Assembly: GCF_963921235.1 (NCBI RefSeq)
Contig: NC_086097.1
Coordinates: 2,852,001 to 2,916,000, forward strand
DNA from: Mobula hypostoma
Lineage: Eukaryota
DNA: 64,000 bases
Reading direction: 5' to 3'
The notes under the pieces were generated by a model. That model did not search any database. It was given only the letters and a program-made list of their open reading frames with translations, and had not been told where the DNA came from. Made by a program: the position numbers and the translations under genes. Shown in pieces: positions 2,549 to 29,640 of the stretch; positions within the stretch are counted from its first letter, which is position 1; each line of letters begins with the position of its first letter.

Positions 2549-3937
2549 GTATGTTGTGTATAGTTTACTGGACTAAGGCAAATTCCTCGGTGTGACAGAG
2601 CCATTGACGACAAGAAGACTTAAAGAAAATTGGCAAAAGAACGGGTGGACACACCAACAAACTACTTTATACACACACTATTAGATTTTTAGTTTTATAT
2701 ATAAAGCTACTTTATGTACATACATGGCAGCAGAAGAATACTCAATGGTAACATTTAGCAGAAGAACGGATGTGGAGAGTGAAAGGTGGGAAGGTCATGG
2801 AACTAACTGTTTAATTGTGCAGTCCTGCGAGGACGCGATGATCCAGAGCACTCTTGTGTTGGACCAGTTTATTCTGACATAGGACAGAAGTACCGTGGGA
2901 GTTTTTTCCATGTTTCCACTGCAGCCTTCTGGTTTTGATTTGAAACCAAAAGTTCCCTGCCTGCTCGAATGAACAGCAAGATCTAACTCAGAAGAATATG
3001 GTGTTTCTGTATTCATGTTCTCTCCAACTTGTAACACTACCAACACGAGCAGAATGTGAATTAACTAGCCACCGATCTCTAACTGAGAATTTGCAGTGTG
3101 TAAAATTAGAGTAGTTGAGGCTTGGGATACCCCGAGTGGATGAAATATATTGGTCTTGTTTGTTTTCCACTTGCAATGTTCTTCCTGAACAGGTTCAAAG
3201 GACAATTTAAATGAAAGTTTATCATGAATATTTAGCATTTAAGGATTATATTTTCATAATAACACATAAACATAACTTAAACATATTTATAATAAACCAC
3301 AAACACAAGAGAATCTACTGATGCTGTAAATCCAAAACAACACACACACAAAATGTTGGAGGAACACAGCAGGTCAGGTAGCATCTGTGGAAAAGAATAA
3401 ACAGTCAACATTCCGGGCCATCGGGACTGGAAGGAAAGAGGAGAAGTCAGAGTATGAAGAGTTTCTTTTACAATAAACTAACTTGAGTAATAAAAACTTA
3501 TTTATAGAACACTTTTCAGACAGACGAAGTAGTTCAAAGTGAACAAACTCTTCTCGGGCGTCCAGCCGGATAAAGGTATCAATTTTAACTGACATTTTGA
3601 TGACAACCTCTGCCATTTTCATTAGTTCAAAGTGCTTTACAATGGGATAAAGTGCAAACATGAAAATAAAGGACAATAAAGATGTTAGTTAAAAGCAAGG
3701 TTAAATGAATAGGTTTTGATCTGTGTTTAAGTGTCAACAGAGTCTGGATCCCATATAGTTTTAGGTATCGAGATCCACAGTTCAGGGGTGTAGTTCAGAA
3801 AAGCTGACTTTCCAAATCTCTTTTGAGGGAGATTGCTTAAATTTAAGAGACTGGTGGAAGAAGACCTGAGAGCTCGAGCAGGATTATAAAACAAAAGCTG
3901 TTCTGTGATTACTCCAGTCCCAGACTATTAAGAGGAA

Positions 3938-6900
3938 TATAGAATCATAGAAAATATACAGTGCAATACAGGCCATTTGGCCCACAAAGCTGTGCTGAAC
4001 ATGTCCCTACCTTAGAACTACCTAGGCTTTACCCATAGCCCTTTATTTTTCTAAGCTCCATGTAGCCATCTAGGAGTTTCTTAAAAGACCCTATCACTTC
4101 CGCCTCCACCACTGCCGCCGGCAGCCCATTCCATGCACTCACCACTCTCTGTGTAAAAAACTTACCCCTGACATCTCCTCTGTACCTATTTCCAAGCACC
4201 TTAAAACTATGCTTTCTCGTATTAGCCAATTCAGCCCTGGGGAAAAGCCTCTGACTATCCACACAATCAATGCCTCTCGTCATCTTGTACACCTCTATCA
4301 AGTCACCTCTCATCCTCCGTTGCTCCAAGGAGAAAAGGCCAAGTTCACTCAACCTATTCCCATAAGGCATGCTCCCTAATCCTGGCAACATCCTTGTAAA
4401 TCTCCTCTGCACCCTTTCTATGGTTTTCACGTCCCTCCTATAGTGAGGTGACCAGAATTGGGCACAGTACTCTAAGTGGGGTCTGACCAGGGTCCTAAAT
4501 AGCTGCAACATTACCTCTTGACTCTTAAACTCAATCCCATGATTGATGAAGGCCAATGCACTGTACGCCTTCTTAACCACAGAGTCAACCTGCGTAGCAG
4601 CTTCCAGTGTCCTATGGACTCCGACCCCAAGATCCCTCTGATCCTCCACACTGCCAAGAGTCTTAACATTAATACTATATTCTACCATCATATTTGACCT
4701 ACCAAAATGAACCACCTCACACTTATCTGGGTTGAACCCCATCTGCCACTTCTCAGCCCAGTTTTTCATCCTATCAATGCCCTGTAACCTCTGACAGCCC
4801 TCCACACAATCCACAACACACCCAACCTTTGTGTCATCAGCAAATTTACTAACCCAACCCTCCACTTCCCCATCCAGGTCATTTATAAAAATCACAAAGA
4901 GTAGGGGTCCCAGAACAGATCCCTGAGGCACACCACTGGTCACCGGCCTCCATGCAGAGTATGATCCGTCTACAAGCACTCTTTGCCTTCTGTGAGCAAG
5001 CCAGTTCTGGATCCACAAAGCAATGTCCCCTTGGATCCCATGCCTCCTTACCTTCTCAATAAGCCTTGCATGGGGTACCTTATCAAATGCCTTGCTGAAA
5101 TCCATATACACTACATCCACTGTTCTTCCTCCATCAATGTGTTTAGTCACATCCCCAAAAAATTCAATCAGGCTCGTAAGGCACTACCTGCCTTTGACAA
5201 AGCCATGTTGACTATTCCTAATCATATTATGCCTCTCCAAATGTTCATAAATCCTGCCTCTCAGGATCTTCTCCATCAACTTACCAACCACTGAAGTAAG
5301 ACTCACTGGCTTATAATTTCCTGGGATATCTCTACACCCTTTCTTAAATAAGGGAACAACATCCGCAACCCTCTAATCCTCCTGAACCTCTCCCATCCTC
5401 ATTGATGATGCAAAGATCATCGCCAGAGGCTCAGCAATCTCCTCCCTCACTTCCCACAGTAGCCTGGGGTACATCCAGTCCGGTCCCGGTGACTTATCCA
5501 ACTTGATGCTTTCCAAAAGCTCCAGCACATCCTCTTTCTTAATATCTATATTCTCAAGCTTTTCAGTCCTCTGTAAGTCATCCCTACAATCCCCAAGATC
5601 CTTTTCCATAGTGAATACTGAAGCAAAGTATTCATTAAGTACCTCTGCTATTTCCTCCGGTTCCATACACACTCTTCCGTTGTCACACTTGATAGGTCCT
5701 ATTCTTTCACATCTCATCCTCTTGCTCTTCACATACTTGTAGAATGCCTTGAGGTTTTCCTTAATCCTACCCGACAAGGCCTTCTCATGGCTCCTTCTGG
5801 CTCTCCTAATTTCATTCTTAAACTCCTTCCTGCAAGCCTTATAATCTTCTAGATTCATATCATTACCTCATTTTGTGAACCTTTTGTAAGCTCTTCTTTT
5901 CTTCTTGGCTAGATTTATAACAGCCTTTGTACACCACGAATCTTGTACTGTACCATCCTTTCCATGTCTCAGAACCCCATGCAAATATCTCCTGAACATT
6001 TGCCATATTTCTTTGGTACATTTCCCTGAGAACATCTGTTTCCAATTTATGCTTCCAAGTTCCTGCCTGATAGCTTCATATTTCCCCTTACTCCAACTAA
6101 ACATTTTAATAACTTGTCTGTTCCTGTCCCCCTCCAATACTATGGTAAAGGAGATAGAATTGTGATCACCATCTCCAAAATGCTCTCCGACTGAGAGACC
6201 TGACACCTGACCAGGTTCATTTCCCAATACTAGATCAAGTACAGCCTCTCCTCTTGTAGGTTTATCTACATATTGTGTCAAGAAACCTTCCTGAACACAC
6301 CTAACAAACTCTACCCCATCTAAACCCCTCACTCTAGCGAGATGGCAATCAATATTTGGGAAATTAAAATCTTCCACCACAACAACCCTGTTATTATTAT
6401 TCCTTTCCAGAATCTGTCTCCCTATCTGCTGCTTGATATCCCTGTTACTATTAGGAGGTCTATAAAAAACCCAGTAGAATTATTGACCCCTTCTTATTCC
6501 TAACTTCCACCCACAGAGACTCCATAGACAACCCTTCCATGACTTCCTCCTTTTCTGCAGCCGTGACACTATCTCTGATCAACAGTGCCACACCCCCACC
6601 TCTTTTGCCTCCCTCCCTGTCCTTTCTGAAACATCTAAAGCCTGGCACTTGAAGTAGCCATTCCTGCCCCTGCACCATTCAAGTCTCTGTAATGGCCACA
6701 TCATACCTCCATGCTGATCGACACTTTATGTGCTCATCTGCTCTATTCATGATACCCCTCATATTAAAATAGACACATCTCAAACCATCGGTCTGAGTGT
6801 GTCCCTTTTCTATCACCTACCTATCCTCCCTTTCACACTGTCTCCAAGCTTTCTCTATTTCTGAGCCAACCTCCCTTTCCTCCGTCACTTCAATTCAGTT

Positions 6901-7515
6901 CCCACCCCCCAGCAATTCTAGTTTAAACTTTCCCTAATAGCCTTAGCAAACCTCCCCACCAGGATATTGGTCTCACTCAGATTCAAGTGCAACCCATCCT
7001 TTTTGTACAGGTCACGCCTGCCCCAAAAGAGGTCCCAATGATCCAGAAATCTGAATCCCTGTCCCCTGCGCAATCCCTCAGCCACGCATTTATCTTCCAC
7101 CTCATTCTATTCCTATACTCACTGTCGTGTGGCACAGGCAGGAATCCCGAGATTCCTACCTTTGGGGTCCTGCTTCTCAACTTCCTTCCTAACTCTCTGT
7201 ATTCTGTTTTCAGGGCCTCCTCCCTATGTCGTTGGTACCAATATGCACCATGACCTCTGGCTGTTCCCCTTCCCACTTCAAGATATCGTGGATGCGATCA
7301 GAAACATCCCAGACCCTGGCACCTGGGAGGCAAACTACCATCCGAGTTTCTTTCCTGCATCCATAGAATCGCCTATCTGACCCGCTAAGTATAGAGTCCC
7401 CTATCACTACTGCCATCCTCTTCCTTTCCTTACCCTTCTGAGCTACAGGGCCGTACTCTGTGCCAGAGGCACGTCCACTGTTGCTTCCCCCAGGTAGGCC
7501 ATCTGCCCCCCCCCC
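3938..7515 (-). mobile_element. Near full-length decayed CR1 LINE: ORF1 SGNH/GDSL esterase part + ORF2 (APE endonuclease, RT)
   Basis: ORF1 motifs VIGDSIL / LPGA / HIGTNDI / KDGLHLN (6918-7420); ORF2 pieces [26 protein letters not shown] (4029-6678); several frameshifts; (atagaa)-type tail. Confidence 0.93.
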
Positions 7516-7649
7516 CAAGTCACAAACATAAGCAATGTGTAACCTGCAGTAAGGTACAAGACTGTTGCGGATTTTGCTATAGTTTCTGTTGTTGGTCTGT
7601 ACATGGTGGGGAAGATGGGAAGTCTCTGAAGCTCTATCTTGGGCCCAAC

Positions 7650-8035
7650 ATATTGATGCAATTACAAAGAGGGCATGACAGCGGCAATATTTCATTAGGA
7701 GTTTGAGGAAACTTGGTATGTCACCAAAGACTCGCAAAATTCTACAGAAGTACTGTGGTACTTGTTGCTCCACCGTCTGGTATGGGGGAGGCACGGCACG
7801 GCATGGCATGGCACGGCACTGCACTGCATCGGCAAGTTGTAAACTCACCAACTGCATCGTGGACACTCGCCTCCCCAGTACTGAGGACAACCTCAATAAG
7901 GGCCCCCATCACCCAGGACATGTCCTTTTCTTATTTCTACCATCAAGGAGGAGGCACAGGATCTTGACGACACACACCCAACATTTTAGGAACAGCTTCT
8001 TTCCCACTGCCAGATTTTGAATGGACGATGAAGTC
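7650..8035 (+). mobile_element. Rex1/Babar-like LINE 3' fragment
   Basis: Peptide HPGHVLFLFLPSRRR...FRNSFFP typical of the RT C-terminal region of this clade. Confidence 0.7.
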
Positions 8036-8325
8036 GTAAAGAATTTTAAGCAACACACAAAATGTTGGAGGAACTCAGCAGGCTAGGCAGCGTCTATGGA
8101 ACAAAGTACAGCTGACGTTTTAGAAAGACTTTCTCTTGTTTGCCATAAAGCATTTTTATTTGTTGAGTATTTTCCCTCTCTTTTTGCACTATTTATTAAA
8201 TTTAATTAGAAATATTTAGACATATATTTCATTCATTCATCTTGTGTCATGTTATGATCACGGTGTCATGACCATGTTTGTTCTTGGCAAATTTTTCTAC
8301 CGAAGTTGTTTGCTATTGCCTTCTC

Positions 8326-8524
8326 AAACAAGAAAAAATCTGCAAATGCTGGAAATCCAAGCAACATATACAAAAATGCTGGAGGAACTCAGCAGATCAG
8401 ACAGCATCACTTGAAAAAGAGTAAACAGTTGATGTTTTGGGTGGACGGCCTGAAATGTTGACTGTACCCTTTTCCATAGATGTTGCCTGACCTACTGAGT
8501 TCCTCCAACATTTTGTGTGTGTTG
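8326..8524. repeat. Penelope pLTR-derived inverted repeat (hairpin element)
   Basis: caaaatgctggaggaactcagcag arm versus ctgagttcctccaacattttgtg arm; degenerate hammerhead remnants in the centre. Confidence 0.65.
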
Positions 8525-8599
8525 TCATTGACAGTGCCATTACGAGATGGGTGACCCCCAGTCATATCAATATTCTTCAGAGATTGCCTGCCTGTCATC

Positions 8600-11500
8600 A
8601 GTGGTCGCATAACCAGCGAACCCCTAATTCTCGTTGGTGTTCCAACATGGCAGTTCTGTTGAACTTAAGTTGCTCTGACTTGGAACAGCTCATGGTCAAA
8701 TGCAGATCATTCTATTTACCGTGGGAGCTCTCATCTGAGATCCTGACTGCAGCCTCTATACCACCTACAGTCGAATATAAGCAAGCACATGTGACACTGC
8801 ACGATGTTGTCTGGAAACTAGAAAGGACCCATCCTGATCTATTTCAAATTATAGTCAGTGACTTTAACCAGACCTGTTTGAAGAAAAACATGCCCAATTA
8901 TCACCAGCCTGTAACCTGTTGCACCAGAAGTCCCAACATACTAGAGCACTGCTACATTCAGATAAGGAATGCCTGCCGTTCCTTGCCTAGACTGTAGTTT
9001 TGTATTCCGGTCACTTGGCTGTCCTGCTCCTTGTATACAGGCAGAGCCTGAAATGCCGGGCCCAGAGATTAGGACAACAAAGAGGCCGAGGAATTGCTCA
9101 GAGACAGTGGACTGAGCCATGTTCGGAATTCAAAGTAAAGTTCATTATCAGAGTACATACATGTCACCACTTACAATCCTGAGATTCGTTTTCTGTGGGC
9201 ATACTCAGCAAATCTATATAACAGTAACTGTAAATAGGATCGGTAAAGTCTAAACATTAGGGACTGTAAACAAACTGCAAATACAGATAATAAGTAAATA
9301 GCGATCAATAATGAGCCTGAAATAACAATATAAAAGAGTCTTTAAACAGGTATAGTTATCCCCTTTTGTTCAAGGGCCTGACGGTTGAGGGGTAGTATCT
9401 GTTCTTGAACCTGGTGGTGCGAGTCCCGAGGCTCTTGAAGCAGCAAGGAAAGAGCATGGCCTGGCTGTGAGGATCTGATGATGGATGTTGCTTTTCTATG
9501 GCAGTGTTTCATGTAGATGTGCTCAGTGGGTGCCAGGGTTTTACCTGAGATGTACCGGGCCGAATCCACTACCTTTTGTAGGATTTTCCACTCAAAGGCA
9601 TTGGTGTTCCCGTACCAGGCCGTAATGCAGCCAGTCAGCACACTGTCCACCACACATCTATAGGTTTGCCAAGGTTTTTGATTCCATGCCAAATCTCCGC
9701 AAACTTCTGAGGAAGTAGAGGTGCTGTCGTGCTTTCTTCACAATGATATTTATATGATGGGTCCAGGACAGGTCTTCTGAGATCATGACGCCCAGGAATT
9801 TAAAGACCTGTTCCATCTTTGATTCTCCTATGATTACTGGCTCATGGACTCATCTAGAGATCTGAATGAATATACTATGGTTGTAATGGACTATATTAAA
9901 ACAGCTGTAAATGAGTGTGTCCCCACTAAATCATTCAGTCTTCCCCTATCAGAAGCCCTGGATGAACCACAAGATCAGAAATCTGCTGAGGCTTTCAAGT
10001 CTGGAGACAAAAAAAAACTACAAGAGGTGCAGGTATGATATCTGGAAGGCCATCTCATGGGTGAAATGGGGATTCTTGAATCAATGAGAGATGCTCAGCG
10101 ACATGGTAGACAGCAGGGCTTCGCTTCCAGGTGAGCTCAATGCCTTCTGTGCTCGCTTTGGCCATCGGAACGTGGAGGAACCATCACGAACCCCATCTCC
10201 TGATGATCCTTTGATCTCAGTATCTGAAGCTGACGTGCGGACTGCCTTCAGGAAGGTGAATGGAAGGAAACCATCTGGACTGGATGGGGTACCTGGCCGT
10301 GTACTAAAGACCTGTGCTGTCCAACAGGCTGGTGTGTTCACTGACATCTTTAACCTCTCACTTCGGCAGCGTGCGGAACCCACCTGCTTCAAGCAGGCTT
10401 CAGTTGTACTGGTGCCCAAGAAGAACATGGTGACCTGCCTCAATGACTGCCCAGTTGTGCAGATCCAGAGTGATGAAGTGTTTTGGAGAGACTGGTGATG
10501 AAACATAACAGCTCCTTCCTGCCTGAGAATCAACTTGGATCTGCTCCAGTTTCCCTACTGGAGCAACAGGTCCACAGTAGATGCCATTTCATCGGCTCTT
10601 CACTCAGTCCTGGAACATCCGGACAGCAAAGATGCATACATCAGGATGACCTTTATCAACTACACTTCAGCATTTAATACCATCATCCCTCAAAACTGAT
10701 CAATGAACTCCTAGATCTTGGCCTCAATACCTTGATGTGCAATTGGATACTGGATTTTCTCACTTGTAAACCCCAGCCAGTTCGGATTGACATCATCATC
10801 TCCTCCCTGATCTCTATCAGCACAGGTGCACAGCAGGGCAGTATGCAAAGCCCACTACTCTACTCGCTTTACACCTCAGACTGTGTGGCTAAGCAAAGCT
10901 CCAAGTTTGCTGAAGACACCATTTGTGGGCTGAATCAAAGGTGGTGATGAATCAGCATACAGGAGGGAGACTGAAAATTTTGCTGAGTGGTATCATAACA
11001 ACCACCTCCCACTCAATGTCAATAAGACCAAAGAACTGATTGTAGACTTCAGGAGAGGGAAACCAGAGATCCATGAGCCAGTGACTCAGACGTGGAGAGG
11101 GTGAGCAACTTTAAATTCCTGGGTGTCACTATTTTGGAGGTTCTGTTCTGGGCCTAAATGCAAGTACAATTGTGAAGAAAGCATGGTAGTGCCTCTACTT
11201 CCTTAGGGGTCTGTGGAGATTTAGCATGACATCAAAAACCTTGACATACTTCTGCAGATATGCAATGGAGAGTGTACTGACTGGCTGCATGGGAACACCA
11301 ATGCTTTTGAATGGAAAATCCTCCAAAAGGTAAGAGATTCGGCCCAGTACATCATGGTTATAACAATCCCAACCATCGAGCACATCTACATGAAACGTTG
11401 TTGCAGGAAAGCAGCATCCGCCATCAGAGATCCCCACCAATGTGGCGGTGCCATCACTGTTGCCATTAGGTAGAAGACAGCATCCATTATTAAGGACCTC

Positions 11501-12240
11501 CAGCACCCAGGGCTGCCCTTTTCTCACTGTTACCATCAGGGAGGAGATACAGAAGCCTGAAGGCACACTCAGTGATTCAGGAACAGCTTCTTCCCCTCTG
11601 CCATCCGATTCCTAAATGGACATTGAAGCTTTGGACACTACCTCACTTTTTAAAATATACAGTATTTCTGTTTTTGCACATTTTAAAATAATCTATTCAA
11701 TATATGTATTTGATTTACCTGTTTATTTATCATTATGTTTTATTTTATTTATTATTATTTTTTCTCTCTCTCTCGGCTAGATTATGTATTGCATTGAATC
11801 ACTGCTGCTAAGTTAACAAATTTCACGTCACACGCCGGTGATAATAAACCTGATTCCGATTTTGATTCTTATTCTGATTCTGATACAGGCGCCTCCGGAC
11901 TCGCACCGTCAGGTTCAAGAACAGTGACTACCCCTTATCCGTCGGGCTCTTGAAGAGAAGGGGACAGTCAGTTGCCCATCCATTGAGATGTTCCCACAGT
12001 CAGTGGACTCAATTTAAAGACTCTTTATCTCGTTATCTCACGTTCTCTCTATTTATTGCCATTTATTTGTATTTGCATTTGCAGTTTGTTGTCTTCTGCC
12101 CTCAACTTGATCTTTCACTCAGCCTGTTATAGTTGCTATTCCACCGATTTGCTGAGCATGACAACAGGTAAATGAATTTCAGGGTTGTACGTGGTGACAT
12201 TAATGTACTCTGATAATAAAAAAATTACTTTGAACTTTGG
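8600..12240 (+). mobile_element. Decayed Rex1/Babar-clade LINE (endonuclease + RT) with nested Rex fragments
   Basis: Peptides DFNQ, ELNAFCARF, DGVPGRVLK...VFTDIFNLSL, CNWILDFLT, GAQQG..SPLLYSLYT; tail ...actttgaactttg; nested inverted fragment at ~9122-9845 and (ctgatt)n-tailed fragment at ~11500-11885. Confidence 0.85.
9122..9845 (-). mobile_element. Rex1/Babar 3' fragment inserted in opposite orientation
   Basis: ORF 9342..9692 SVLTGCITAWYG...LQKVVDSA; same family as 38770-40683. Confidence 0.75.
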
Positions 12241-12244
12241 ACGT

Positions 12245-12800
12245 GCTCTGCACCAGCTGCTCCCATGGCTTCGCGTGACTGATCGTGGGGGTGGCGGTGG
12301 GGGTTGCTAAGCAGGTGCTGCACCTCTGCCCGAGTGAGAGCTCCGGGCTCGCGGAGGGAAGGAGCGCTGACTGGTACCTGACGCATCTCCACCCCACTAA
12401 CCCCTCTCTCTGTATACACTTTTTCCCATTGTAATTTATATATTTTTTTCCTATTATGTCTTGCACTTTACTGCTACCTGAAAGCAGCAAGTTTGACGAC
12501 AGAGGGTGCGATGATACCTGAGAGACGGTGGGCAGGGAGCGGCCACGGTCCCGGTCCAGAGGCGGAGGCGGCGGCAGTGCCGGCAGCCGAGAGCCGGGTA
12601 GCGCGCATGCGCCGCCGGACCGCGACCGACCCTCTGCGAAGATGCTCGATGGCGGATTTGATGCTGGTGACCGGCGCCTTTGAGAAAACAAAATGTCCAC
12701 CAAGGCCGAGCAATGTGAGTATCGAGTTTGTTCTGGCAAAGCAGAGTACCGTTATCAAATGAGAGACGTTATTATTCTGCCGTGTACCATCTGCCATCCC
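12245..12800 (+). promoter_or_regulatory. CpG-island-like promoter / 5' leader of UNC79
   Basis: GC- and CpG-rich non-TE segment directly upstream of the ATG exon; GCGCATGCGC (NRF1-type palindrome) at 12603-12612, GATGGCGG (YY1-like) at 12648-12655; TSS not determinable. Confidence 0.75.
12693..12714 (+). CDS. UNC79: UNC79 coding exon 1 (MSTKAEQ + first base of Phe codon)
   Basis: ATG TCC ACC AAG GCC GAG CAA T|GTGAGT; A at -3; in-frame TGA at 12681-12683 upstream; matches the remembered vertebrate UNC79 N-terminus MSTKAEQF and joins in phase to the exon at 41355. Confidence 0.92.
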
Positions 12801-13269
12801 CCTCAGAAAACGGAATGGGCCAGGTCATCAGCTGTCGGTGCATCAACCTACATGTTAATTTAGGAATTTAAAGCAACGAAAATAATACAGATGTACTTCG
12901 TCAGACAGAAGTAGAATTGGGACAGCGATCCTTAAATGTACCCACTCTCTGCTGCTGTGGAAGAGGTTGGTTGCCAAGGTCAGCCAACCTCAGTAATGGG
13001 GTGAGAGGGGGATAAACAGTAAGGTGCGTAACTACAAAAACTCACAGCTTTTAAAAATTTTCATATTTTATAGATTTGAATCAAAGATGGTTTGCTGAAA
13101 GGCAAATTAATGAGAGAGAACAAGAGCAGCTAATTATTACAATTATGTGTAAAACTGTCATGATATGTACTGATGTTAGTTATTTAACAGTCATGAAAAC
13201 AGTCCTCTTTTGGAATCATCTCGGGGTGACGTGCTGTGGTATTTCCATAAATAATTTTTGATACTATCA

Positions 13270-13630
13270 CTGAGGGGAGATTTGATAGAGATATACAAAA
13301 TTTGGAGGGGAATAGATAAGGTAAAAGCAAGCAGGCTTTTTCTACTGGGGTTGGGTGAGACTACAACTAGAGCTTATGGGTTAATGGTGAAAGGTTAGAA
13401 GCTTAGGGGGAATATGAAAGGGAACTTCTTCACCCAAAGGGTGGAGAGAGTGTGGAACGAGCTGCCAATAGAAGTGGTGGATGTGGGTTTGATTTCACCA
13501 TTTAAGAGAAATTTGGATAGGTATTTGGATGGGAAGGGTTTGGAGCTTGATGGGACTAGGCGGATTAATGGTCAAGTCAGCACAGACTAGATGGGCCTGC
13601 TTCTGTTCTGTAGTGTTGATGACTCTATAA
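13270..13630 (+). mobile_element. CR1 3' fragment
   Basis: RGDLIE...FFTQRV..VWN motifs; family match to 49795-50175. Confidence 0.75.
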
Positions 13631-13699
13631 ATCTATCATATTTGCAAGAAGTATGAACAATGTTATTCAGGATAGTTGAATTTTAAAAATTATTGCTTG

Positions 13700-14425
13700 A
13701 ACATAGAACAGTACAGAACAGGAACAATGTTGTGCTGAACCCAGTTAAATTAGTAAGCAAATGGCCAACTAAACTAATCTCTTCTGCCTACAAAATGTCC
13801 ATAGCCTTCCAATTTCCTCACATTTGTGTGCCTATCTAAACATCGCTTAAAAGTTTATAATGTATTTGCCTCCATTACCTCCCCAGGCAGCACATTCCAG
13901 GCATCCATCACTCTCTGTGTAAAAATACTTGTCCCTCACAATTCTTTTGAACTTGCCCCATCCCACCTTAATTGCATGCCCTTTGATATTAGGAATTTCA
14001 ACCCTGGGAAAATAATACTGTCTGTCTATTCTATCTGTCTATTCTCTCATAATTTTATAAACCTCTATTAGATCTCCCCTCAGCTTGTACCACTCCAGAG
14101 AAAACAACCCAAGTTTGTCCAACTTCTTGTTATAGCACATGCCCTCTAATCCAGGCAACATCCTGGTAAACCTCTTCTGTACCCTCTCCAAAGCCTTGAC
14201 ATCATTCCTGTAATGGGGTGACAAGAACTGTATGCAATTCTCCAGATGTGGCCCGACTAGAGTTTTATAAAGCTGCAACATAACTTCCTGACTTCTGAAC
14301 TCAATGCCTTGACTAATAAAGACAAGCCTGATGGATGCCGCCTTAACATCCTATCAACCTGTGTACCACTTTCAGGGAGTTATGTATGAACTTGGACCTC
14401 AAGATCCCTCTGCTCGTCAACACTC
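13700..14425 (-). mobile_element. CR1 3' fragment
   Basis: ORF 14039..14281 LYKTLVGPHLE...LERVQKRFTRMLPGL...RGDLIEVYK. Confidence 0.85.
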
Positions 14426-14699: not shown

Positions 14700-15170
14700 A
14701 GCTGTAAAACAGTTTGAGCAGATTTGGTATGTCACTAAAGACGCAAATTTCTACAGATGTGCTGTGGAGAGCATTCTGACTGGCTGCATCACCGTCTGGT
14801 ATGGAGGGGTCACTACACAAAATCAAAATACGCTCTAGAAAGTTGCAAACTCAGTCAGTTCCATCATGGGCACTAGCATCGAGGATGCCTTCAAGGAGCA
14901 ATGCCTCGAATGGTGTCATCTTTCATTAAGGATCTCCATCACCCAGGGCATGCCCTCTTCACAGTGGTCGTACCATCAAGGAGGAGGTACAGCAGCCTGA
15001 AGTGTTTTTAGGAACAGCTTCTTCCCCTCTGCCATCAGATTTCTGAATGGACATTGAACCCATGTGCACTACCTCACCACTTTTTTTTCTTTTTTTGTAC
15101 TACTTACTTCATTTAATGTTTATATATACCTATGGTAAATTTATAGTATTTTTATTATGTATGGCAATGT
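14700..15170 (+). mobile_element. Rex1/Babar 3' fragment (tail continues at ~18672-18740 after the RTE-like insertion)
   Basis: Homologous to 34470-34810 and 7650-8035. Confidence 0.7.
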
Positions 15171-15446
15171 TTTTTGTTCGTCCATTGTCAACGTCGATGA
15201 GGACCTTGACACCAGATGGTGTCGAGACTAGCGCATGATTTGGATTTAAGTGACGGAGAGTTGCGCAGCGTCAACCTCACTCTCTCTTCCCAATTCCCAT
15301 CTGGATCCAGTGGCAGGATAGAGTCGAGACAGCTGGAGTGGATGACCAGGATGTCTTCTGTGTCTTGTCATGCTCTACACGTTCCACGACGCTTGCAGAG
15401 ACCGCCTTCTTGACCGTTGGACCTTCCATTGGTCTCGTTCGCTCAA

Positions 15447-18410
15447 TCATAGAACCATAGAAACTACAGCACAGAAACAGGCCTTTTGGCCCTTCTTGGC
15501 TGTGCCGAACCATTCTCTGCCTAGTCCCACTGACCTGCACCTGGACCGTATCCTTCCATACACCTCCCATCCATGTATCTGTCCAATTTATTATTAAATG
15601 TTAAAAAAGAACCCGCATTTACCACCTCGTCTGGCAGCTCATTCCATACTCCCACCACTCTCTGTGTGAAGAAGCCCCCCTTAATGTTCCCTTTAAACTT
15701 TTCCCCCCTCACCCTTAACCCATGTCCTCTGGTTTTTTTCTCCCCTAGCCTCAGTGGAAAAAACCTGCTTGCATTCACTCTATCTATACCCATCATAATT
15801 TTATATACCTCTATCAAATCTCCCCTCATTCTTCTATGTTCCAGGGAATAAAGTCCTAACCTATTCCACCTTTCTCTGTAACTGCGTTTCTCAAGTCCCG
15901 GCAACATCCTTGTAAACCTTCTCTGCACTCTTTCAACCTTATTTACATCCTTCCTGTAATTTGGTGACCAAAACTGAACACAATACTCCAGATTCGGCCT
16001 TACCAATGCCTTATACAACCTCATCATAACATTCCAGCTCTTATACTCAATACTTTGATTAACAAAGGCCAATGTACCAAAAGCTCTCTTTACGACCCTA
16101 CCTACCTGTGACGCCACTTTTAGGGAATTTTGTATCTGTATTCCCAGATCCCTCTGTTCCACTGCACTCCTCAGTGCCTTACCATTAACCCTGTATGTTC
16201 TACGTTGGTTTGTCCTTCCAACGTGCAATACCTCACACTTGTCTGATTTAAACTCCATCTGCCATTTTTTCAGCCCATTTTTCCAGCTGGTCCAAGTTCC
16301 TCTGCAGGCTCTGAAAACCTTCCTCACTGTCTACTACACCTCCAATCTTTGTATCATCAGCAAATTTGCTGATCCAGTTTACCACGTTATCATCCAGATC
16401 ATTGATATAGATGACAAATAACAATGGACCCAGCGCTGATCCCTGTGGCACACCACCAATCACAGGCCTCCACTCGGAGAAGAACTTCTCGACTACCACT
16501 CTTTGGCTTCTTCCGTTGAGCCAATGTCTAATCCAATTTACCACCTCTCCATGTATACCTAGCGACTGAATTTTCCTAACTAACCTCCCGTGCGGGACCT
16601 TGTCAAAGGCCTTACTGAAGTCCATGTAGACAATATCCACTGCCTTCCCTTCATCCACTTTCCTGGTAACCTCCTTGAAAAACTCCAACAGATTGGTCAA
16701 ACATGACCTACCACGCACAAAGCCATGTTGACTCTCCCTAATAAGTCCCTGTCTATCCAAATGCTTGTAGATTCTGTCTCTTAGTACTCCCTCCAATAAC
16801 TTACCTACTACCGACGTTAAACTCACCGGCCTATAATTTCCCGGATTACTTTTCGATCCTTTTTTAAACAACGGAACAACATGAGCCACTCTCCAATCCT
16901 CCGGCATCTCACCTGTAGACAGCGACATTTTAAATATTTCTGCCAGGGCCCCCGCAATTTCAACACTAGTCTCCTTCAAGGTTCGAGAGAACACCCTGTC
17001 AGGTCCCAGGGATTTATCCACTTTAATTTTCCTCAAGACAGCAAGGACCTCCTCCTTTTCGATCTGTACAGTTTCCATGATCTCACTACTTGTTTCCCTT
17101 AATTCCATAGACTTCATGCCAGTTTCCTTAGTAAACACAGACGCAAAAAACCTATTTAAGATCTTCTCCATTTCCTTTGGTTCCGCACATAGCCGACCAC
17201 TCTGATCTTCAAGAGGACCAATTTTATCCCTTACAATCCTTTTGCTCTTAATATACCTGTAAAAACTCTTTGGATTATCCTTCACTTTGACTGCCAAGGC
17301 AACCTCATGTCTTCTTTTAGCCCTCCTGATTTCTTTCTTAAGTATTTTCTTGCACTTCTTATACTCCTCAAGCACCTTATTTACTCCCTGCTTCCTATAC
17401 ATGTCATACAACTCCCTCTTCTTCTTTATCAGAGTTGCAATATCCCTTGAGAACCAAGGTTTCTTATTCCTATTCACTTTGCCTTTAATCCTGACAGGAA
17501 CATACAAATTCTGCACTCCCAAAATTTCTCCTTTGAAGGCTTCCCACCTACCGATCACATCCTTGCCAGAGAACAACCTGTCCGAATCCACGCTTTTTAG
17601 ATCCTTTCTCATTTCTTCAAATTTGGCCTTCTTCCAGTTCAGAACCTCAACCCTAGGACCAGATCTATCCTTGTCCATGATCAAGTTGAAACTAATGGTG
17701 TTATGATCACTGGAACCAAAGTGCTCCCCTACACAAACTTCTGTCACTTGTCCTAACTCGTTTCCTAACAGGAGATCCAATATTGCATCCCCTCTAGTTG
17801 GTCCCTCTATATATTGATTTAGAAAACTTTCCTGTACACATTTTACAAACTCTAAACCATCTAGACCCCTAACAGTATGGGAGACCCAATCAATATATGG
17901 AGAATTAAAATCCCCTATCACCACAACTTTATGTTTCCTGCAGTTGCCTGCTATCTCTCTGCAGATTTGCTCTTCCAATTCTCTTTGACTATTGGGTGGT
18001 CTGTAATACAATCCCACTAATGTGGCCATACCTTTCCTGTTTCTCAGCTCCACCCACAAGGACTCAGTAGACAAGCCCTCTAATCTGTCCTGCCTGAGCA
18101 CTGCTGCAATATTTTCCCTAACAAGCAATGCCACTCCCCAACCTTTCATTCCTCTGCCTTGATCACATCTGAAACATCAGAACCCTGGAATATTAAGCTG
18201 CCAGTCCTGCCCCTCCTGTAGCCAAGTTTCACTAATTGCTACAACGTCATAATTCCACGTGTCAATCCACACTCTCAACTCATCCACCTTCCCTGCAATA
18301 CTCCTAGCATTGAAATATATACACCTCAGAAAATTTTTACCACCACTCACAACCTTTCTATTAGCGGATTTGCTTGAACTTTTAACATCATTTATTTTCA
18401 CCCCAGCCAC
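15447..18410 (-). mobile_element. Young CR1 LINE, nearly intact ORF2 (APE + RT)
   Basis: ORFs 18177..18449, 16248..18149 (633 aa), 15521..16327; NARSI, ISETW, GDFN, SDH, NYRPVSLTS, PQGS, FADD; only a few disruptions. Confidence 0.95.
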
Positions 18411-18486
18411 ACTCCGCTGGAGTCTGTCTTCACATGCTGGGATAGACAACTCCCGATCTCACCGAGGGTTTGAGACCCATCGGCTA

Positions 18487-18671
18487 CCCTCACCTGGTTT
18501 AGCCGGCTTGTTGAAGCCGTTGCCCGGGGTGTGGCCGCTGTCGCATGCAAACAGCTACGGGGAGCCACAGGTGAGAGCTGACTGCCAGGTGGGGACCAAA
18601 GGTGGACTAACCACCTTGAAAAGGACGTGACATGTTCCCCCACCAGAGGTGCTACCCCTCCCTGACACCCC
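18487..18671 (-). ncRNA. HDV-like self-cleaving ribozyme candidate
   Basis: P1 GGGGUGU/ACACCCC; P2 CUCUCACCUGU/A(C)CAGGUGAGGG; P3 GGC/GCC; P1.1 CC/GG; GGGCAAC-P4 (CGGCUU/AAGCCG)-GCUAA with candidate catalytic C at 18502. Confidence 0.7.
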
Positions 18672-18767
18672 ATACACTGCTACTGCAAAACAACAGTTTT
18701 CATGACATGTGCCAGTGATATTAAAACTGATTCTGATTTGCTGTCAACCTCAAATGACTTTGATGTA

Positions 18768-21463
18768 CAGTACCAATAAAAGGTATTCACCCCCATTGAA
18801 GTTTTCATGTTTTATTGTTTTATAACATTGAATCACAGTGGGTTTAATTTGGCTTTTTTTGACACTGATCAACAGAAAGAGACCCTTCTGTGTAAAAGTG
18901 AAAACAGGTAAGACTATAAGACATAGGAGCAGAATTAGGCCATTCAGCCCATTGAGTCTGTTCCTCCATTTCGTCATGGCTCAGCCCAGATCCCTTTCAA
19001 CCCCATACACGTGTCTTCTTGTCATACCTTTGATGCCCCGATCAATCAGGGATGTATCTACTTCCGCTTTGAGTATACCCACCGTCTTGGTCTCCATTGC
19101 AGTTTGTGGCGGAGCATTTCACAGACTGGATAAAAAAAATTCTCCTTTCCTCTGTTCTGAAAGGTTGCCCCTCAATTTTGAGGCTGTGCCCTCTAATTCT
19201 GGATAACCCCAAATGGAGGAAACATCCTCTCCACCTCCACCTTATGTAGTCCTTCCTACATTTGGCAGGTTTCAATGAGATCCCCATGCATTCTTCTAAA
19301 TTCCAGTGAGTACAGGCCCAAAGTTGCCAAATGCTCTTTCGTTCCTGGAATCATCCTCATGAACCTCCTTTGGACTCTCTCCAATGACAACACATCCTTT
19401 CAGAGATATGGGGCCCAGAACTGCAGACAGTACTCCAAGTGCAGCCTGACCAGTGTCTTATAAAGGCTCAGCATTATCTCCTTGTTTTTATATTCTATTC
19501 CCCTTGAAATAAATGCCAACATTGCATTTGCCTTCTTTACCACTGACTCAATCTGTAAGTTAACCTTCTGGGAGTCTTGCATGAGGACTTCAAAGTCCCT
19601 CTGCCCCTCTGATGTTTGAACCTTCTTCCTATTACTTCCTCAGCACTATCTACCAATCTACCTATCTTTGTATCATCTGCAAACTTTGCCACAGAGCCAT
19701 CAATTCCATTATCCAAATTATCGACAACAGTGTGAAAAATAACGGTCCCAATATTGACCCCTGAGGAGCACCAGTAGTCACTGCAGCCAACCAGAAAAGG
19801 TCCCTTTATTCCCACTCGCTGCCTCCTGCCTCCGCTGTTATCCTTGCCAGTGTATTTCCTTAAATACTATAGGATTTTTATTTTGTTAAGCAGTTTCATG
19901 TGAGGCACCTTATCAAATGCCTTTCGAAAATCCAAGTAAATGACATCTACTGCCTCTCGTTTGCCCACCCTGCTTGTTACTTCAAAGAACTCTTAACAGA
20001 TTTTTAGGCCAGATTTCCTTTTATCGAACCATGCTGACTTTGACTTATTTTATCATTAGTCTCCAAGTATCTTGAAACCTCATCCTTAACAATAGACTCC
20101 AACACTTTCTCAACCACTGAGGTTAGGCTAACTGGCCTATAATTTCTGCTCTTTTGTCTTCCTCCCTTTTTAAAGAGTGGAGTGACATTTGCAATTTTCC
20201 AGTCCTCCAGATATATACAAAGTGATCTAAATTGCAAATATAAACCACAAAATAATTGATTGCATAAGTATTCACCTCCTATAATATGACACACCAAATC
20301 ATCACTGGTGCAGCCAATTGGTTTTAGAAGTCACATAATTAGTTAAATGGAGACCTGTGTGCAGTTGAGGTGTTTCAATTGATTGTAGTAAAAATACACC
20401 TATCTGGAAGGTTCAACTGCTGGTGAGTCAGTGGTGTCCTGGCAAAAACTACACCATGAAGACCAAAGAACACTTCAAGCAACTCTGCGAAAAGTTTTTG
20501 GAAAAACACAAGTCACTGCAGCAGGCTCGAGAAGGTGTGGGAAGGCTTGGGTACAAAGAAAGTTCCAAGTCACTAAATGTCCCTTGGAGTATAGCCAATC
20601 ATCAAGAAATGGAAAGAATATGGCATAGCTTTAAATCAGCCTTGAGCAGACCATCCTCAAAAACTGAGTGACTGTGCAAGAAGAGAACTAGTGAGGGAGC
20701 CCACCAAGAGACCGATGACAAATCTGGAGAAGTTACAAGCTTCAGTGACTGAGATGGGAGAGACTGTGCATACAACAACTGTTGCCTGGGTGTAACTTTA
20801 TGGGAGAGTGGAAAAGAGAAAGCCACTGTTGGGAAAAAAAACTTCCATGAGAGATCGGCTGGGGTTTGACAGAAGGCATATGGGAGAGTCTGAAGTCAGC
20901 TGGAAGAAGACTCTATGGTCTAATGAAACCAAAATTGAGCTTTTTGGCCATCAGACTAAACGTTATGTTTGGCATAAGCCATCCACCACACATAATCAAA
21001 AACACACCATCCCTACTGTGAAGCATGGTGGTGGCTGCATCATGCTGTGGGGATGCTTCACTGCAGCTGGCCCAGGAAGGCTTGTGAAGGTAGAGGGTAA
21101 AATGAATGCTGCAAAATACAGAGAAATCCTGGAGGAAAGCCTGATGCAGTCTGTGAGAGAACTGCGACTTGTGAAATTTGTTTTCCAGCAAAACAATGGC
21201 CCCAAGCATAAAGCCAAAGCTACACAGGAATGGCTTAGAAACAGCAAAGTGGCTAAGTCAGAGTCCAGACCTCAATCCAAATGAGAATTTGTGGTTGGAC
21301 TTCAAAATTGCTGTTCACTCATGATCCCCATGTAATCTGACAGAGCTTGAGAAGTTTTGTAAAGAAGAATGGGGAAAAATTGCAGTGTCCAGATGTGCAA
21401 AGCTGATAGAGACCTATCTACACAGACTCAAGGCTGTAATTGCTGCCAAAGGTGCATCTACTA
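18768..21463 (+). mobile_element. Tc1/mariner DNA transposon, decayed; interrupted by CR1 (18909-20208), right end replaced by Penelope DNA
   Basis: TA|CAGT..AAAGGTATTCACCCCC left TIR with inner repeat near 20265; transposase motifs [32 protein letters not shown]. Confidence 0.88.
18909..20208 (-). mobile_element. CR1 RT/3' fragment nested in Tc1
   Basis: ORFs 19400..19582, 19537..19815, 20004..20297 with KFADDTK, NYRPVSLTS. Confidence 0.88.
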
Positions 21464-29299: not shown

Positions 29300-29640
29300 A
29301 GCTGTTGTACTGGGGCAGTTCCACTGTCTTGACCTCAGAAGTCTGGGTCAAGTGGGACGAGTAATTCTCACAGCTTGGCTGCAGTGGATGACCATGACTA
29401 TTTCTGTGCCTTGTCATGCCCTTCGCCATCCATGTAGGACAGCAAAACCGCCTTCCTGACCATTTGACCTCACTGTAGATTGCATCTGCCCAGTCCCTGA
29501 GATGACTAAACAGGCTAGGATAGGCATGTCCCTATCTCACAGGGGTATGAGACCCGTTTGACTACCCCCACCTGGTTTAGTCCACCTGTTGAAGTGGTGT
29601 ATCTAAGTAGCATGTGACAGTAGCCACACTGGTGCACATT
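29300..29640 (-). mobile_element. Diverged, 5'-truncated copy of the RTE-like short element
   Basis: Shares gtggatgacca, ccgccttc.tgacc, tgagaccc, cacctggtttag with 15340-15445 / 18411-18520. Confidence 0.65.

What the first reader, a model, noticed from the sequence alone, without database searches (positions are those of the whole stretch)
18487..18671. HDV-like ribozyme with an atypical hairpin inserted in L3 at the exact 5' end of a short RTE-like retroposon
Seen on the minus strand: the element starts GGGGUGU (18671-18665), which pairs 7/7 with ACACCCC (P1). That is followed by GG-GCAAC, a P4 hairpin CGGCUU-CAAC-AAGCCG, J4/2 GCUAA (as in antigenomic HDV; candidate catalytic C at 18502) and ACCAGGUGAGGG, which pairs with CUCUCACCUGU (P2, one bulge). 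P3 is GGC/GCC and L3 starts UCC (P1.1 with GG). All helices fall in nested double-pseudoknot order. Known: HDV-like ribozymes process the 5' ends of R2, RTE, L1Tc and Ingi retrotransposons. Unusual: L3 is ~28 nt with its own stem-loop (GCUGUU-UGCAUGC-GACAGC) instead of the usual 7-8 nt, and J1/2 is long and structured (AAGGUGG-UUAGU-CCACCUU). Inference: a structural variant that standard descriptors would likely miss, carried by a non-coding element. I cannot confirm it is undescribed.
Basis: partly seen in the sequence, partly recalled or inferred. Interest (0 to 1): 0.78.

Follow-up and report, generated by a model that had tools for sequence, protein, structure and literature searches.

The report
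HDV-like ribozyme heading a short retroposon
A short, non-coding jumping element present in thousands of copies in this probable cartilaginous-fish genome starts with an RNA fold built like the hepatitis-delta self-cutting ribozyme, with an extra hairpin in a core loop and a doubled first strand; self-cutting has not been tested.

Summary
A strict HDV-type descriptor found it and matched 0 of 10000 shuffles.

The fold heads a 540-585 bp non-coding retroposon with target-site duplications and an (AAC)n-type tail. In the window this element is split by a nested CR1-type LINE.

Four subfamilies keep the catalytic core almost unchanged, at 0-0.08 differences per site. P4, J1.1/4, part of J1/2 and the L3 hairpin diverge (0.18-0.42). 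P4 and the L3 hairpin show compensatory changes.

Two corrections:
- The element does not start at G18671. Full copies start 9 nt upstream with a second, identical GGGGTGT (30 of 40 unbiased copies). The productive cut should therefore use the upstream heptamer. The window copy has lost its first three bases.
- The base opposite G1 is C, not the canonical U.

No Rfam model detects the fold. "RTE-like" could not be tested, and cleavage is untested.

Verdict: a well-supported new structural variant of a known kind, about 0.68 likely to be an active ribozyme.

The parts
18672..18677 (-). Remnant (GTGTAT) of the upstream heptamer unit. This is the 5' end of this copy of the short retroposon; full copies read GGGGTGTAT here.
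   Evidence: copy boundaries; 30 of 40 unbiased copies have the full 9 nt; 1430 exact twin-heptamer sites in the genome.
18665..18671 (-). Second heptamer GGGGTGT.
   Evidence: 7 of 7 pairs with 18532-18526.
18578..18664 (-). J1/2 peripheral domain (87 nt). It holds a conserved hairpin at 18659-18645 and a closing helix GGTGGGG 18644-18638 with CCCCACC 18594-18588. It also holds a subfamily-specific hairpin at 18617-18599.
   Evidence: helices 2 and 3: 93.3% and 87.8% of cells paired; 5' part invariant, middle part 0.31 differences per site.
18567..18577 (-). P2 5' strand (CTCTCACCTG, plus T).
   Evidence: pairs with 18496-18487; invariant among subfamily consensus rows.
18564..18566 (-). P3 5' strand GGC.
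18536..18563 (-). L3, 28 nt. Its first six bases, T-C-C-N-N-G, have the spacing I recall for HDV L3 (the partner U and G of the reverse wobble, and CC of P1.1 at 18562-18561). TA, a 19-nt hairpin (18555-18537) and G follow.
   Evidence: The hairpin is kept in 4 of 4 subfamilies, with a G-C to A-U change and a different loop.
18533..18535 (-). P3 3' strand GCC.
18526..18532 (-). P1 3' strand ACACCCC. Its last C (18526) lies opposite G1, giving G-C rather than G.U.
   Evidence: (the CpG is ancestral).
18524..18525 (-). GG of P1.1.
18504..18523 (-). J1.1/4 (GCAA, 18523-18520) and the P4 hairpin (18519-18504).
   Evidence: P4 shows compensatory changes between subfamilies.
18497..18503 (-). J4/2, GCTAAAC, with the candidate catalytic C at 18502 followed by N-A-A.
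   Evidence: C-T-A-A in three subfamilies and C-C-A-A in subfamily M.
18487..18496 (-). P2 3' strand CAGGTGAGGG.
18410..18486 (-). Remainder of the 5' half of the short retroposon, up to the break made by the nested LINE.
   Evidence: 97% identity to element positions 6-273.
15449..18413 (-). Nested CR1-type LINE that splits the retroposon. It has APE and RT domains, one in-frame stop, one frameshift, and a (GTTCTATG)2 3' end. It is not part of the ribozyme element.
   Evidence: (39 other copies match only from 18413 inward, at 100% identity).
15170..15448 (-). 3' half of the short retroposon, ending in ...GATGGACGAAC plus an A-rich tail.
   Evidence: (88% identity to element positions 269-565).

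Best explanation
The stretch is the 5' domain of a short (540-585 bp), non-coding, SINE-like retroposon with no recognisable Pol III head. The domain folds as an HDV-like self-cleaving ribozyme with three departures from the textbook form: a stem-loop inserted at the 3' end of L3, a G-C pair instead of G.U at the cleavage site, and a tandem duplicate of the P1 5' strand.

Proposed mechanism:
- The element is transcribed as part of longer host transcripts.
- P1 forms between a 5' GGGGUGU and ACACCCC about 140-150 nt downstream. P2, P3, P1.1 and P4 complete the double pseudoknot.
- The C of J4/2 (window 18502) acts as in HDV, and the RNA is cut just 5' of the paired heptamer's first G. This frees the element's RNA from upstream sequence.
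- A LINE reverse transcriptase that recognises the 3' end and its (AAC)n-type tail then copies the RNA by target-primed reverse transcription. This gives target-site duplications and slightly ragged 5' junctions.
- In full-length copies the productive cut must use the upstream heptamer, because it is inherited. In the window copy, which lost its first three bases, only the second heptamer (18671-18665) can form a full P1.

Shown: the fold, its conservation pattern, the covariation in P4 and the L3 hairpin, the 5' ends, and the copy numbers. Inferred: catalysis, read-through transcription, and the LINE partner.
For: 1. Anatomy. All helices fall in HDV order. The core letters match HDV as I recall it: L3 starts U-C-C-N-N-G, GG of P1.1 follows P1, and J4/2 reads C-N-A-A. 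A strict descriptor matched 0 of 10000 shuffles.

2. Conservation pattern. Four subfamilies were compared (Y, O, M, N; 30 sequences). Differences per site among their consensus rows:
- Core: P2 strands 0.05 and 0; P3 3' + P1 3' + P1.1 0.08; J4/2 0.07.
- Periphery: J1.1/4 0.42; J1/2 middle 0.31; P4 0.29; L3 hairpin part 0.18.

3. Pairing statistics. 89.3% of cells are paired, against 43.0-50.3% for the slid controls. 0 of 500 shuffles reach the observed value on any of the five measures.

4. Compensatory changes:
- P4, columns 194/207: CG 15, GC 4.
- P4, columns 196/205: CG 17, UA 10.
- P4, columns 197/204: UG 15, CG 11, UA 4.
- L3 hairpin, columns 157/175: GC 15, AU 6, GU 6.

5. 5' ends. Of 40 copies chosen without regard to upstream sequence, 30 carry the full GGGGTGTAT. 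Three carry 8 of its 9 nt, four carry 7, and one each carries 6, 4 and 0. Two of the 40 are one duplicated locus. None shows conserved sequence further upstream. In 16 of 29 other copies a 7-17 nt target-site duplication abuts the tail. The element starts at or within a few bases of the first G, sometimes after 1-3 extra bases (my reading). The first 7 nt of the element are thus the P1 5' strand, as in known ribozyme-headed retrotransposons.

6. No Pol III-type or other known RNA family is detected in the window. A promoter-less element needs such processing.

7. Precedent. HDV-like ribozymes process R2, RTE, Baggins and L1Tc elements and some non-autonomous elements (PMC6765202 passages). R2 SIDEs are 5' ribozyme plus 3' end (PMC3414825 abstract). 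Variable 5' junctions with untemplated bases are typical when the cut is at the element's end (PMC3774820 passages).
Against: - No cleavage or RNA-end data exist. All 24 runs listed were contigs and none is on record as RNA.
- The cleavage-site pair is G-C in the window copy and in the ancestral state of most subfamilies. Of the first 100 of 412 sites, 24 read CG, 30 TG, 44 CA and 2 TA (my count). [quoted passage not shown]
- The 28-nt L3 has no precedent that I could find, and it may disturb the active site.
- P1, P2, P3 and P1.1 are invariant between subfamilies, so no covariation tests them.
- Two identical heptamers compete for one partner. Equal use would make about half of new copies single-heptamer, yet only 1 of 40 young copies is.
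- The first ~60 nt are as invariant as the core. This points to a further function, or a different one, such as a promoter, protein binding or a G-quadruplex.
- No Rfam HDV-type model scores the region even at E up to 10.
- The pseudoknot-free folding energy is ordinary (z = -0.76).
Confidence: 0.68

Rival explanations
1. The 5' domain is a conserved structured RNA, or a DNA promoter, that is not catalytic. It could be an internal promoter fixing the start at the first G, a binding platform for the partner LINE's protein, or a 5' G-quadruplex that protects the RNA. On this reading the HDV-like drawing is a resemblance only.
For: - The first ~60 nt (both heptamers and the AGGGG/CCTCT hairpin) are invariant among subfamilies, at 0-0.07 differences per site. 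A ribozyme does not require that of J1/2.
- The first 26 nt hold four G runs that fit a G-quadruplex motif (direct reading).
- There is a G-C pair at the cleavage site and a 28-nt L3. There are no Rfam hits.
- The first 77 nt of L1Tc act as a promoter as well as a ribozyme (PMC3383444 abstract start).
Against: - A promoter or G-quadruplex does not explain why the strands of P2, P3 and P1', the U-C-C-N-N-G of L3 and the C-N-A-A of J4/2, 110-190 nt downstream, are also invariant. Nor does it explain why P4 and the L3 hairpin keep pairing through compensatory changes.
- The strict HDV descriptor matched 0 of 10000 shuffles.
- A promoter and a ribozyme are not exclusive.
Confidence: 0.2
2. The working P1 5' strand is the second heptamer (18671-18665). 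Cleavage 5' of G18671 defines the element's RNA 5' end.
For: - It is the only complete heptamer in the window copy.
- Its -1 base is always U, the fastest -1 base in HDV (PMC1874588 abstract).
- A minority of copies start at or next to the second heptamer: 1 of 40 Y, 2 of 11 O, 2 of 7 N and L025.
Against: RNA cut there would lose the first heptamer, yet the first heptamer is inherited.
- 30 of 40 unbiased young copies carry it in full, and 37 of 40 carry at least 7 of the 9 nt.
- It is present in the consensus of all four subfamilies.
- There are 1430 exact twin-heptamer sites in the genome.
Confidence: 0.1
3. Chance complementarity in a G+C-rich repeat, with no selected structure.
For: - A relaxed descriptor hits 635 of 3000 shuffles and a loose one hits 12 of 3000.
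- The MFE z-score is -0.76.
Against: - The strict descriptor matched 0 of 10000 shuffles.
- The same fold is kept in four diverged subfamilies, with compensatory changes and core-versus-periphery contrasts.
- P1 starts at the element's first base.
Confidence: 0.02

Closest known systems
[quoted passage not shown]
   Same: - Nested double pseudoknot at the 5' end of a non-LTR element.
- A 6-7 bp P1 whose 3' strand lies immediately after P3/L3.
- A long J1/2 (23 to over 700 nt).
- A variable P4.
- A conserved catalytic C and a few core bases.
- Ragged 5' junctions with untemplated bases when the cut is at the element's end.
   Different: - R2 is autonomous, inserts into 28S rDNA and is co-transcribed by Pol I. 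This element is short, non-coding and dispersed (TSDs at many sites).
- L3 carries a 19-nt hairpin.
- The P1 5' strand is duplicated.
- The cleavage-site pair is G-C.
- Activity is untested.
R2 SIDEs (short internally deleted elements) and NARTc: non-autonomous elements made of a 5' HDV-like ribozyme plus a LINE 3' end (PMC3414825 abstract; PMC3383444 abstract start)
   Same: A 5' ribozyme plus a 3' end recognised by a LINE. There is no coding capacity, propagation is by target-primed reverse transcription, and the 5' junctions vary.
   Different: - SIDEs are rare and site-specific, and their parent R2 is known.
- Here there are thousands of dispersed copies (1516 exact 30-mer hits for the young subfamily alone), at least four subfamilies, and no parent or partner LINE was found.
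HDV-like ribozymes of RTE and Baggins elements and of some SINEs (Ruminski et al. 2011 and Webb et al. 2009; known to me only through passages of PMC6765202 and PMC3774820, as the papers themselves are not held)
   Same: Promoter-less non-LTR elements freed from read-through transcripts by a 5' HDV-like ribozyme. Many intergenic copies show conserved downstream sequence and differing upstream sequence.
   Different: - RTE membership of this element is untested.
- I could not check whether any of those ribozymes has an L3 insertion or a doubled P1 strand, because their figures and supplements were not available.
Large HDV-like ribozymes with structured J1/2 peripheral domains (Webb et al. 2016, PMC4908430, abstract and introduction read)
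   Same: A long, helical J1/2 domain that can hold P1 and P2 together. Here it is a closing helix GGUGGGG/CCCCACC plus inner hairpins.
   Different: The peripheral domain here includes a second copy of the P1 5' strand. The additional insertion is in L3, which that paper's text describes as part of the catalytic core.
Genomic and antigenomic HDV ribozymes (PMC1874588 and PMC13635239 passages; sequence details recalled)
   Same: - P3 of 3 bp.
- L3 beginning U-C-C-N-N-G.
- Two G-C pairs in P1.1.
- J4/2 C-U-A-A, as I recall for the antigenomic form.
- GG-GCAAC after P1 in the young subfamily, as I recall for the genomic form.
   Different: - G1-C instead of the G1:U37 wobble.
- L3 of 28 nt instead of about 8.
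- J1/2 of 87-96 nt.
- The setting is a retroposon, not a circular RNA replicon.

Membership tests
HDV-like self-cleaving ribozymes | Nested double pseudoknot in the order P1, P2, P3, (L3), P3', P1', P1.1, P4, J4/2, P2' | tested here: met
   The descriptor scan finds exactly this arrangement.
HDV-like self-cleaving ribozymes | P1 of about 7 bp starting at the cleavage-site G, with its 3' strand directly after P3' | tested here: met
   7 of 7 pairs. The same partner serves either heptamer.
HDV-like self-cleaving ribozymes | G.U wobble closing P1 at the cleavage site (PMC1874588 passage) | tested here: not met
   - G-C in the window copy (18526).
- The CpG is ancestral in the pool: 24 CG, 30 TG, 44 CA, 2 TA among the first 100 of 412 sites.
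- Only the O subfamily consensus reads U (11 T and 3 C in 14 rows).
HDV-like self-cleaving ribozymes | 3-bp P3, 2-bp P1.1, and L3 with the conserved U and G of the reverse wobble | tested here: met
   GGC/GCC, CC/GG, and L3 starting T-C-C-N-N-G in 4 of 4 subfamily consensus rows. The equivalence with U20 and G25 rests on my recall of HDV numbering and on passages of PMC13635239 and PMC3774820.
HDV-like self-cleaving ribozymes | Short L3 (about 7-8 nt) | tested here: not met
   L3 is 28 nt in Y, O and N and 26 nt in M, and includes a stem-loop.
HDV-like self-cleaving ribozymes | Catalytic C in J4/2 followed by N-A-A | tested here: met
   C-T-A-A in Y, O and N; C-C-A-A in M.
HDV-like self-cleaving ribozymes | Covariation supporting the helices | tested here: inconclusive
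   P4 and the L3 hairpin covary. P1, P2, P3 and P1.1 do not vary between subfamilies, so they remain untested.
HDV-like self-cleaving ribozymes | Match to a curated HDV-type covariance model | tested here: not met
   No Rfam 15 hit at gathering score in the window. None at E up to 10 in 17500-19500.
HDV-like self-cleaving ribozymes | Site-specific self-cleavage giving a 5'-OH product | not testable with these tools
   No raw RNA reads were on offer.
Ribozyme-headed non-autonomous non-LTR elements (SIDE / NARTc type) | 5' ribozyme joined to a LINE-type 3' end, no ORF, TSDs, variable 5' junctions | tested here: met
Ribozyme-headed non-autonomous non-LTR elements (SIDE / NARTc type) | An autonomous LINE sharing the 5' ribozyme and/or the 3' end | tested here: inconclusive
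   - None was found in about 280 kb of held sequence.
- None was found among the 54 genome sites where the element diverges after position 382.
- The genome could not be searched freely.
RTE clade retroposons | 3' end shared with an RTE-clade LINE (APE plus RT, no CR1-type 3' repeat) | not tested
   - No partner was identified.
- The only LINE at the locus is a nested CR1-type element with a different 3' end.
- A tail of short repeats fits RTE but also other clades.

The most novel reading that the evidence does not exclude
This is a distinct structural subclass of HDV-like ribozymes with two features.
- An obligatory extra stem-loop sits at the 3' end of L3.
- A built-in spare copy of the P1 5' strand lets copies that lose a few 5' bases during reverse transcription still cut themselves out, and so buffers the ribozyme against 5' erosion.

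This processing module alone, without a Pol III head, would have sustained a SINE-like family of thousands of copies through several subfamily turnovers in a vertebrate. The invariant first ~60 nt might in addition act as a promoter, as in L1Tc.
Probability: 0.2. Interest if true: 0.72.

Novelty: new variant of a known kind. Interest (0 to 1): 0.55.

Why it matters
- HDV-like ribozymes are usually found with descriptors or covariance models that fix L3 at 7-8 nt. An active member with a 28-nt L3 would show that the core tolerates an insertion next to P3, and that current searches undercount the family.
- It would add a high-copy, recently active vertebrate example. The 29 other copies in the best-ranked set are 96-98% identical to the window copy. 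The element relies on RNA self-processing instead of a Pol III promoter.
- The doubled P1 strand raises a testable question: how do ribozyme-headed elements survive the ragged 5' ends made by target-primed reverse transcription?
- The natural G-C and G.U alternatives at the cleavage site offer a ready-made comparison for the role of the wobble pair.

Tried and rejected
- **LINE 5' UTR reading, rejected.** I first read the window's APE-RT ORF as the body of the element, which would make the ribozyme a LINE 5' UTR. In one search, 39 other copies match only from 18413 inward at 100% identity. One search shows a CR1-type (GTTCTATG)2 end at 15449. The LINE is therefore a nested insertion.
- **Rfam.** 0 hits at gathering score in the window. 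11 weak, unrelated hits and no HDV-type hit at E up to 10 in 17500-19500.
- **RNA evidence.** No RNA holder was listed. Contigs of four coded runs (X1, X2, X5, X9) were laid. They show related copies in four coded organisms but no starts or ends.
- **Folding energy.** Pseudoknot-free MFE z = -0.76, not informative.
- **Search for a parent or partner LINE**, nothing found. I tried BLAST of the element against all held loci and the window, a tail-motif scan, and a genome pattern for copies that diverge after position 382. That pattern gave 54 sites: point mutants, O-like copies, and 3 with other continuations that I did not follow.
- **G.U at the cleavage site in the older copies.** The pooled sites look like CpG decay. 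Only the O rows lean to U.
- **Earlier findings.** A look-up by sequence found none. Look-ups by words and by place gave context only.
- **Literature on an L3 insertion.** Searches returned no HDV-like ribozyme with an enlarged L3. Ruminski 2011 and Webb 2009 are not held, so their figures and supplements were not checked.
- **Variant family 'b'.** Its unrelated 5' module is fused at CCTTTGGTCCCC. I saw no heptamer complementary to P1' there, so it gives no test of P1.
- **Not done.** A covariance-model search of the genome was not run, because family members would have filled every listed place.
Full report
**1. The observation**

- P1: GGGGTGT (18671-18665) pairs 7 of 7 with ACACCCC (18532-18526).
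- P2: 18577-18568 with 18496-18487, ten contiguous pairs.
- P3: GGC 18566-18564 with GCC 18535-18533.
- P1.1: CC 18562-18561 with GG 18525-18524.
- P4: a 6-bp hairpin at 18519-18504.
- J4/2: reads GCTAAAC, with the candidate catalytic C at 18502.
- L3: 28 nt, holding a 19-nt hairpin (18555-18537).
- J1/2: 87 nt.

The order of strands is that of the HDV nested double pseudoknot.

As I recall the HDV ribozymes, the core letters agree closely:
- L3 begins U-C-C-N-N-G.
- GG of P1.1 follows P1.
- J4/2 is C-N-A-A.

Chance was tested with descriptor scans.
- My loose descriptor found the fold and matched 12 of 3000 dinucleotide shuffles of the region.
- A relaxed descriptor matched 635 of 3000.
- A descriptor as strict as the observed fold matched 0 of 10000.

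Pseudoknot-free folding energy is unremarkable (z = -0.76). No Rfam 15 family matches, either at gathering score in the whole window or at E up to 10 around the site.

**2. What carries it**

The 5' 268 nt (18677-18410) recur in the genome at 94-98% identity. The first look found 3070 candidates, of which 40 were scored. A 30-mer from the region has 1516 exact matches, against 0 for the reversed control.

Six extended copies showed a common unit of about 560 bp. It ends in ...GATGGAC(G/A)AAC followed by (AAC)n-like repeats. In 16 of 29 copies I could read a target-site duplication of 7-17 nt directly abutting the tail.

In the window this unit is split. Its 3' half lies at 15448 to about 15170. 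Between the halves lies an APE-RT LINE.

I first took that LINE for the element's own body. rejects this. 39 other genomic copies match only from 18413 inward, at 100% identity, and the LINE ends in a CR1-type (GTTCTATG)2 repeat at 15449. It is a nested insertion.

"RTE-like" could not be tested, because I found no LINE sharing the element's ends. Earlier notes of this scan call the genome a cartilaginous fish (unchecked).

**3. Relatives and selection**

A diverged, 5'-truncated copy in the window (29594-29381) led to an older subfamily, O. O is also short, about 540 bp. A two-anchor pattern search (307 sites) revealed two more subfamilies, M and N.

The consensus rows of the four subfamilies differ very unevenly across regions.

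| Region | Differences per site |
|---|---|
| P2 3' strand | 0 |
| P2 5' + P3 5' + first six L3 bases | 0.05 |
| P3' + P1' + P1.1 | 0.08 |
| J4/2 | 0.07 |
| J1.1/4 | 0.42 |
| Middle of J1/2 | 0.31 |
| P4 | 0.29 |
| L3 hairpin part | 0.18 |

On the 30-sequence alignment A2:
- 89.3% of cells are paired, against 43.0-50.3% for partners slid by 1-3 columns.
- 0 of 500 shuffles reach the observed value on any of the five measures.
- The informative events are few but clear. P4 changes by C-G to G-C, C-G to U-A, and U.G, C-G and U-A at three positions.
- The L3 hairpin changes G-C to A-U in subfamily N and has a different loop in M.
- J4/2 is C-U-A-A in three subfamilies and C-C-A-A in M. This matches, as I recall it, the variable second position between the two HDV ribozymes.
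- P1, P2, P3 and P1.1 never vary between subfamilies, so covariation neither supports nor contradicts them.

Within subfamilies the copies are decaying neutrally, so cell counts overstate the number of independent events.

Contigs from four coded organisms carry related copies. Of the 40 listed rows of variable places, one (18525, the CpG partner in P1.1) falls in a core strand. 25 further rows were not shown.

**4. Where the element starts**

This is the main correction.

I took 40 copies from the pattern list without regard to upstream sequence. Two of them are one duplicated locus.
- Three have 8 of the 9 nt, and four have 7.
- One each has 6, 4 and 0.
- Nothing further upstream is conserved except a frequent T: T 19, A 7, G 3, C 1 among the 30.

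The T fits T-rich targets, microhomology or an untemplated addition. Where target-site duplications are clear, the element starts at the first G or a few bases inside it, sometimes after 1-3 extra bases.

All four subfamily consensus rows carry the twin GGGGTGT-AT-GGGGTGT. The genome holds 1430 exact twin sites and 15 triple ones.

An RNA cut there would not pass on the first heptamer.

The upstream heptamer is identical, however, and pairs equally with ACACCCC. So the element's first seven bases are a P1 5' strand, as in known ribozyme-headed retrotransposons. The window copy lacks the first three Gs, so only the second heptamer can form a full P1 there.

A minority of copies start at or next to the second heptamer: 1 of 40 Y, 2 of 11 O, 0 of 12 M and 2 of 7 N. 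This fits either occasional use of the second site or a 9-nt truncation.

**5. Most likely mechanism**

The element has no recognisable Pol III head or other known RNA family and no ORF. The mechanism I consider most likely:
- It is transcribed within longer host transcripts.
- It folds into the HDV-like ribozyme and cuts 5' of the first G, leaving a 5'-OH RNA.
- That RNA is copied by a LINE reverse transcriptase that recognises the 3' end.

The ragged 5' junctions with extra bases match what is described for R2 lineages that cut at the element's end (PMC3774820, abstract and passages). A long structured J1/2 is normal for such ribozymes. R2 ranges from 23 to over 700 nt (PMC3774820), and peripheral J1/2 domains activate large HDV-like ribozymes (PMC4908430, abstract and introduction).

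J1/2 here contains an invariant hairpin and a closing helix GGUGGGG/CCCCACC.

The closest analogues are the R2 SIDEs, which consist of a 5' ribozyme plus a 3' end (PMC3414825 abstract), and NARTc. Reviews state that RTE, Baggins and some SINEs use HDV-like ribozymes (PMC6765202 passages).

**6. What speaks against it, and what remains odd**

- **Cleavage-site pair.** It is G-C, not G.U. Among the first 100 of 412 sites of the older subfamilies I counted CG 24, TG 30, CA 44 and TA 2. Eight of the CA sites lie in one tandemly duplicated block. This is the pattern of a decaying ancestral CpG. Only the O rows lean to U (11 T and 3 C in 14 rows; consensus). [quoted passage not shown]
- **L3 insertion.** The 28-nt L3 is without precedent in the papers I could search. 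Ruminski 2011 and Webb 2009 are not held. The insertion follows the U-C-C-N-N-G segment, next to the P3 3' strand. I recall that this position tolerates change in HDV, but I did not test that.
- **Heptamer competition.** Two identical heptamers competing for one partner should give many single-heptamer progeny, yet few are seen. Something must favour the first site, or disfavour RNAs cut at the second.
- **Invariant 5' region.** The first ~60 nt are as invariant as the core and contain a G-quadruplex-type run of four G tracts. A further role is possible, such as a promoter (as in L1Tc Pr77, PMC3383444 abstract start), protein binding or 5' protection.
- **No direct RNA evidence.** No RNA ends could be examined.

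**7. Verdict**

The fold is real, non-random and under selection as an HDV-type architecture at the head of a short retroposon. I rate it about 0.68 likely to be an active self-cleaving ribozyme. A non-catalytic structured or promoter domain is the main rival, at about 0.2.

It is a new structural variant of a known kind, with an L3 stem-loop, a doubled P1 strand and a G-C cleavage-site pair. Its setting, a ribozyme-headed non-autonomous non-LTR element, is known in principle, but not at this copy number in a vertebrate as far as my searches reach.

Noticed in passing
window 15449-18413 (minus strand): A CR1-type LINE (APE and RT domains, one in-frame stop near 18177, a frameshift near 16300, a (GTTCTATG)2 3' end) is nested inside the ribozyme-bearing retroposon. 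At least 39 other genomic copies are 100% identical over the 74 nt compared, so this LINE family is very young.
   Followed up: partly
window 29381-29594 (minus strand): A 5'-truncated, decayed copy of an older subfamily of the same retroposon. It retains P4, J4/2 and the P2 3' strand but lacks P1, P2 5' and most of L3.
   Followed up: yes
window 18652-18677 and full copies such as L027: The first 26 nt of the element hold four G runs (GGGG, GGGG, GGG, GGGG with 1-5 nt spacers). This fits the usual G-quadruplex motif, and a quadruplex would compete with P1.
   Followed up: no
loci L042, L048, L050, L061, L062, L063: A composite repeat family. An unrelated module of several hundred nt is fused to the retroposon at CCTTTGGTCCCC in J1/2. 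It therefore carries the ribozyme core without any P1 5' strand that I could see.
   Followed up: partly
G000 C5:123.83-124.18 Mb: Eight older-subfamily copies share the same variant and are spaced by roughly 20-100 kb. This looks like a tandemly duplicated block that contains one insertion.
   Followed up: no
genome-wide: 15 copies carry three heptamer units instead of two, against 1430 exact twin sites. The repeat number changes occasionally, perhaps by slippage or template switching at the RNA 5' end.
   Followed up: partly
window 18692-18740: The flank just upstream of the element is itself highly repeated. Summed contig word depths there are 2000-13700 in three coded runs. The retroposon therefore sits inside another repeat.
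   Followed up: no
L009 517-1431 (minus strand): Another copy of the short retroposon is also interrupted by a CR1-type LINE 3' fragment. This suggests frequent nesting of the two families.
   Followed up: no
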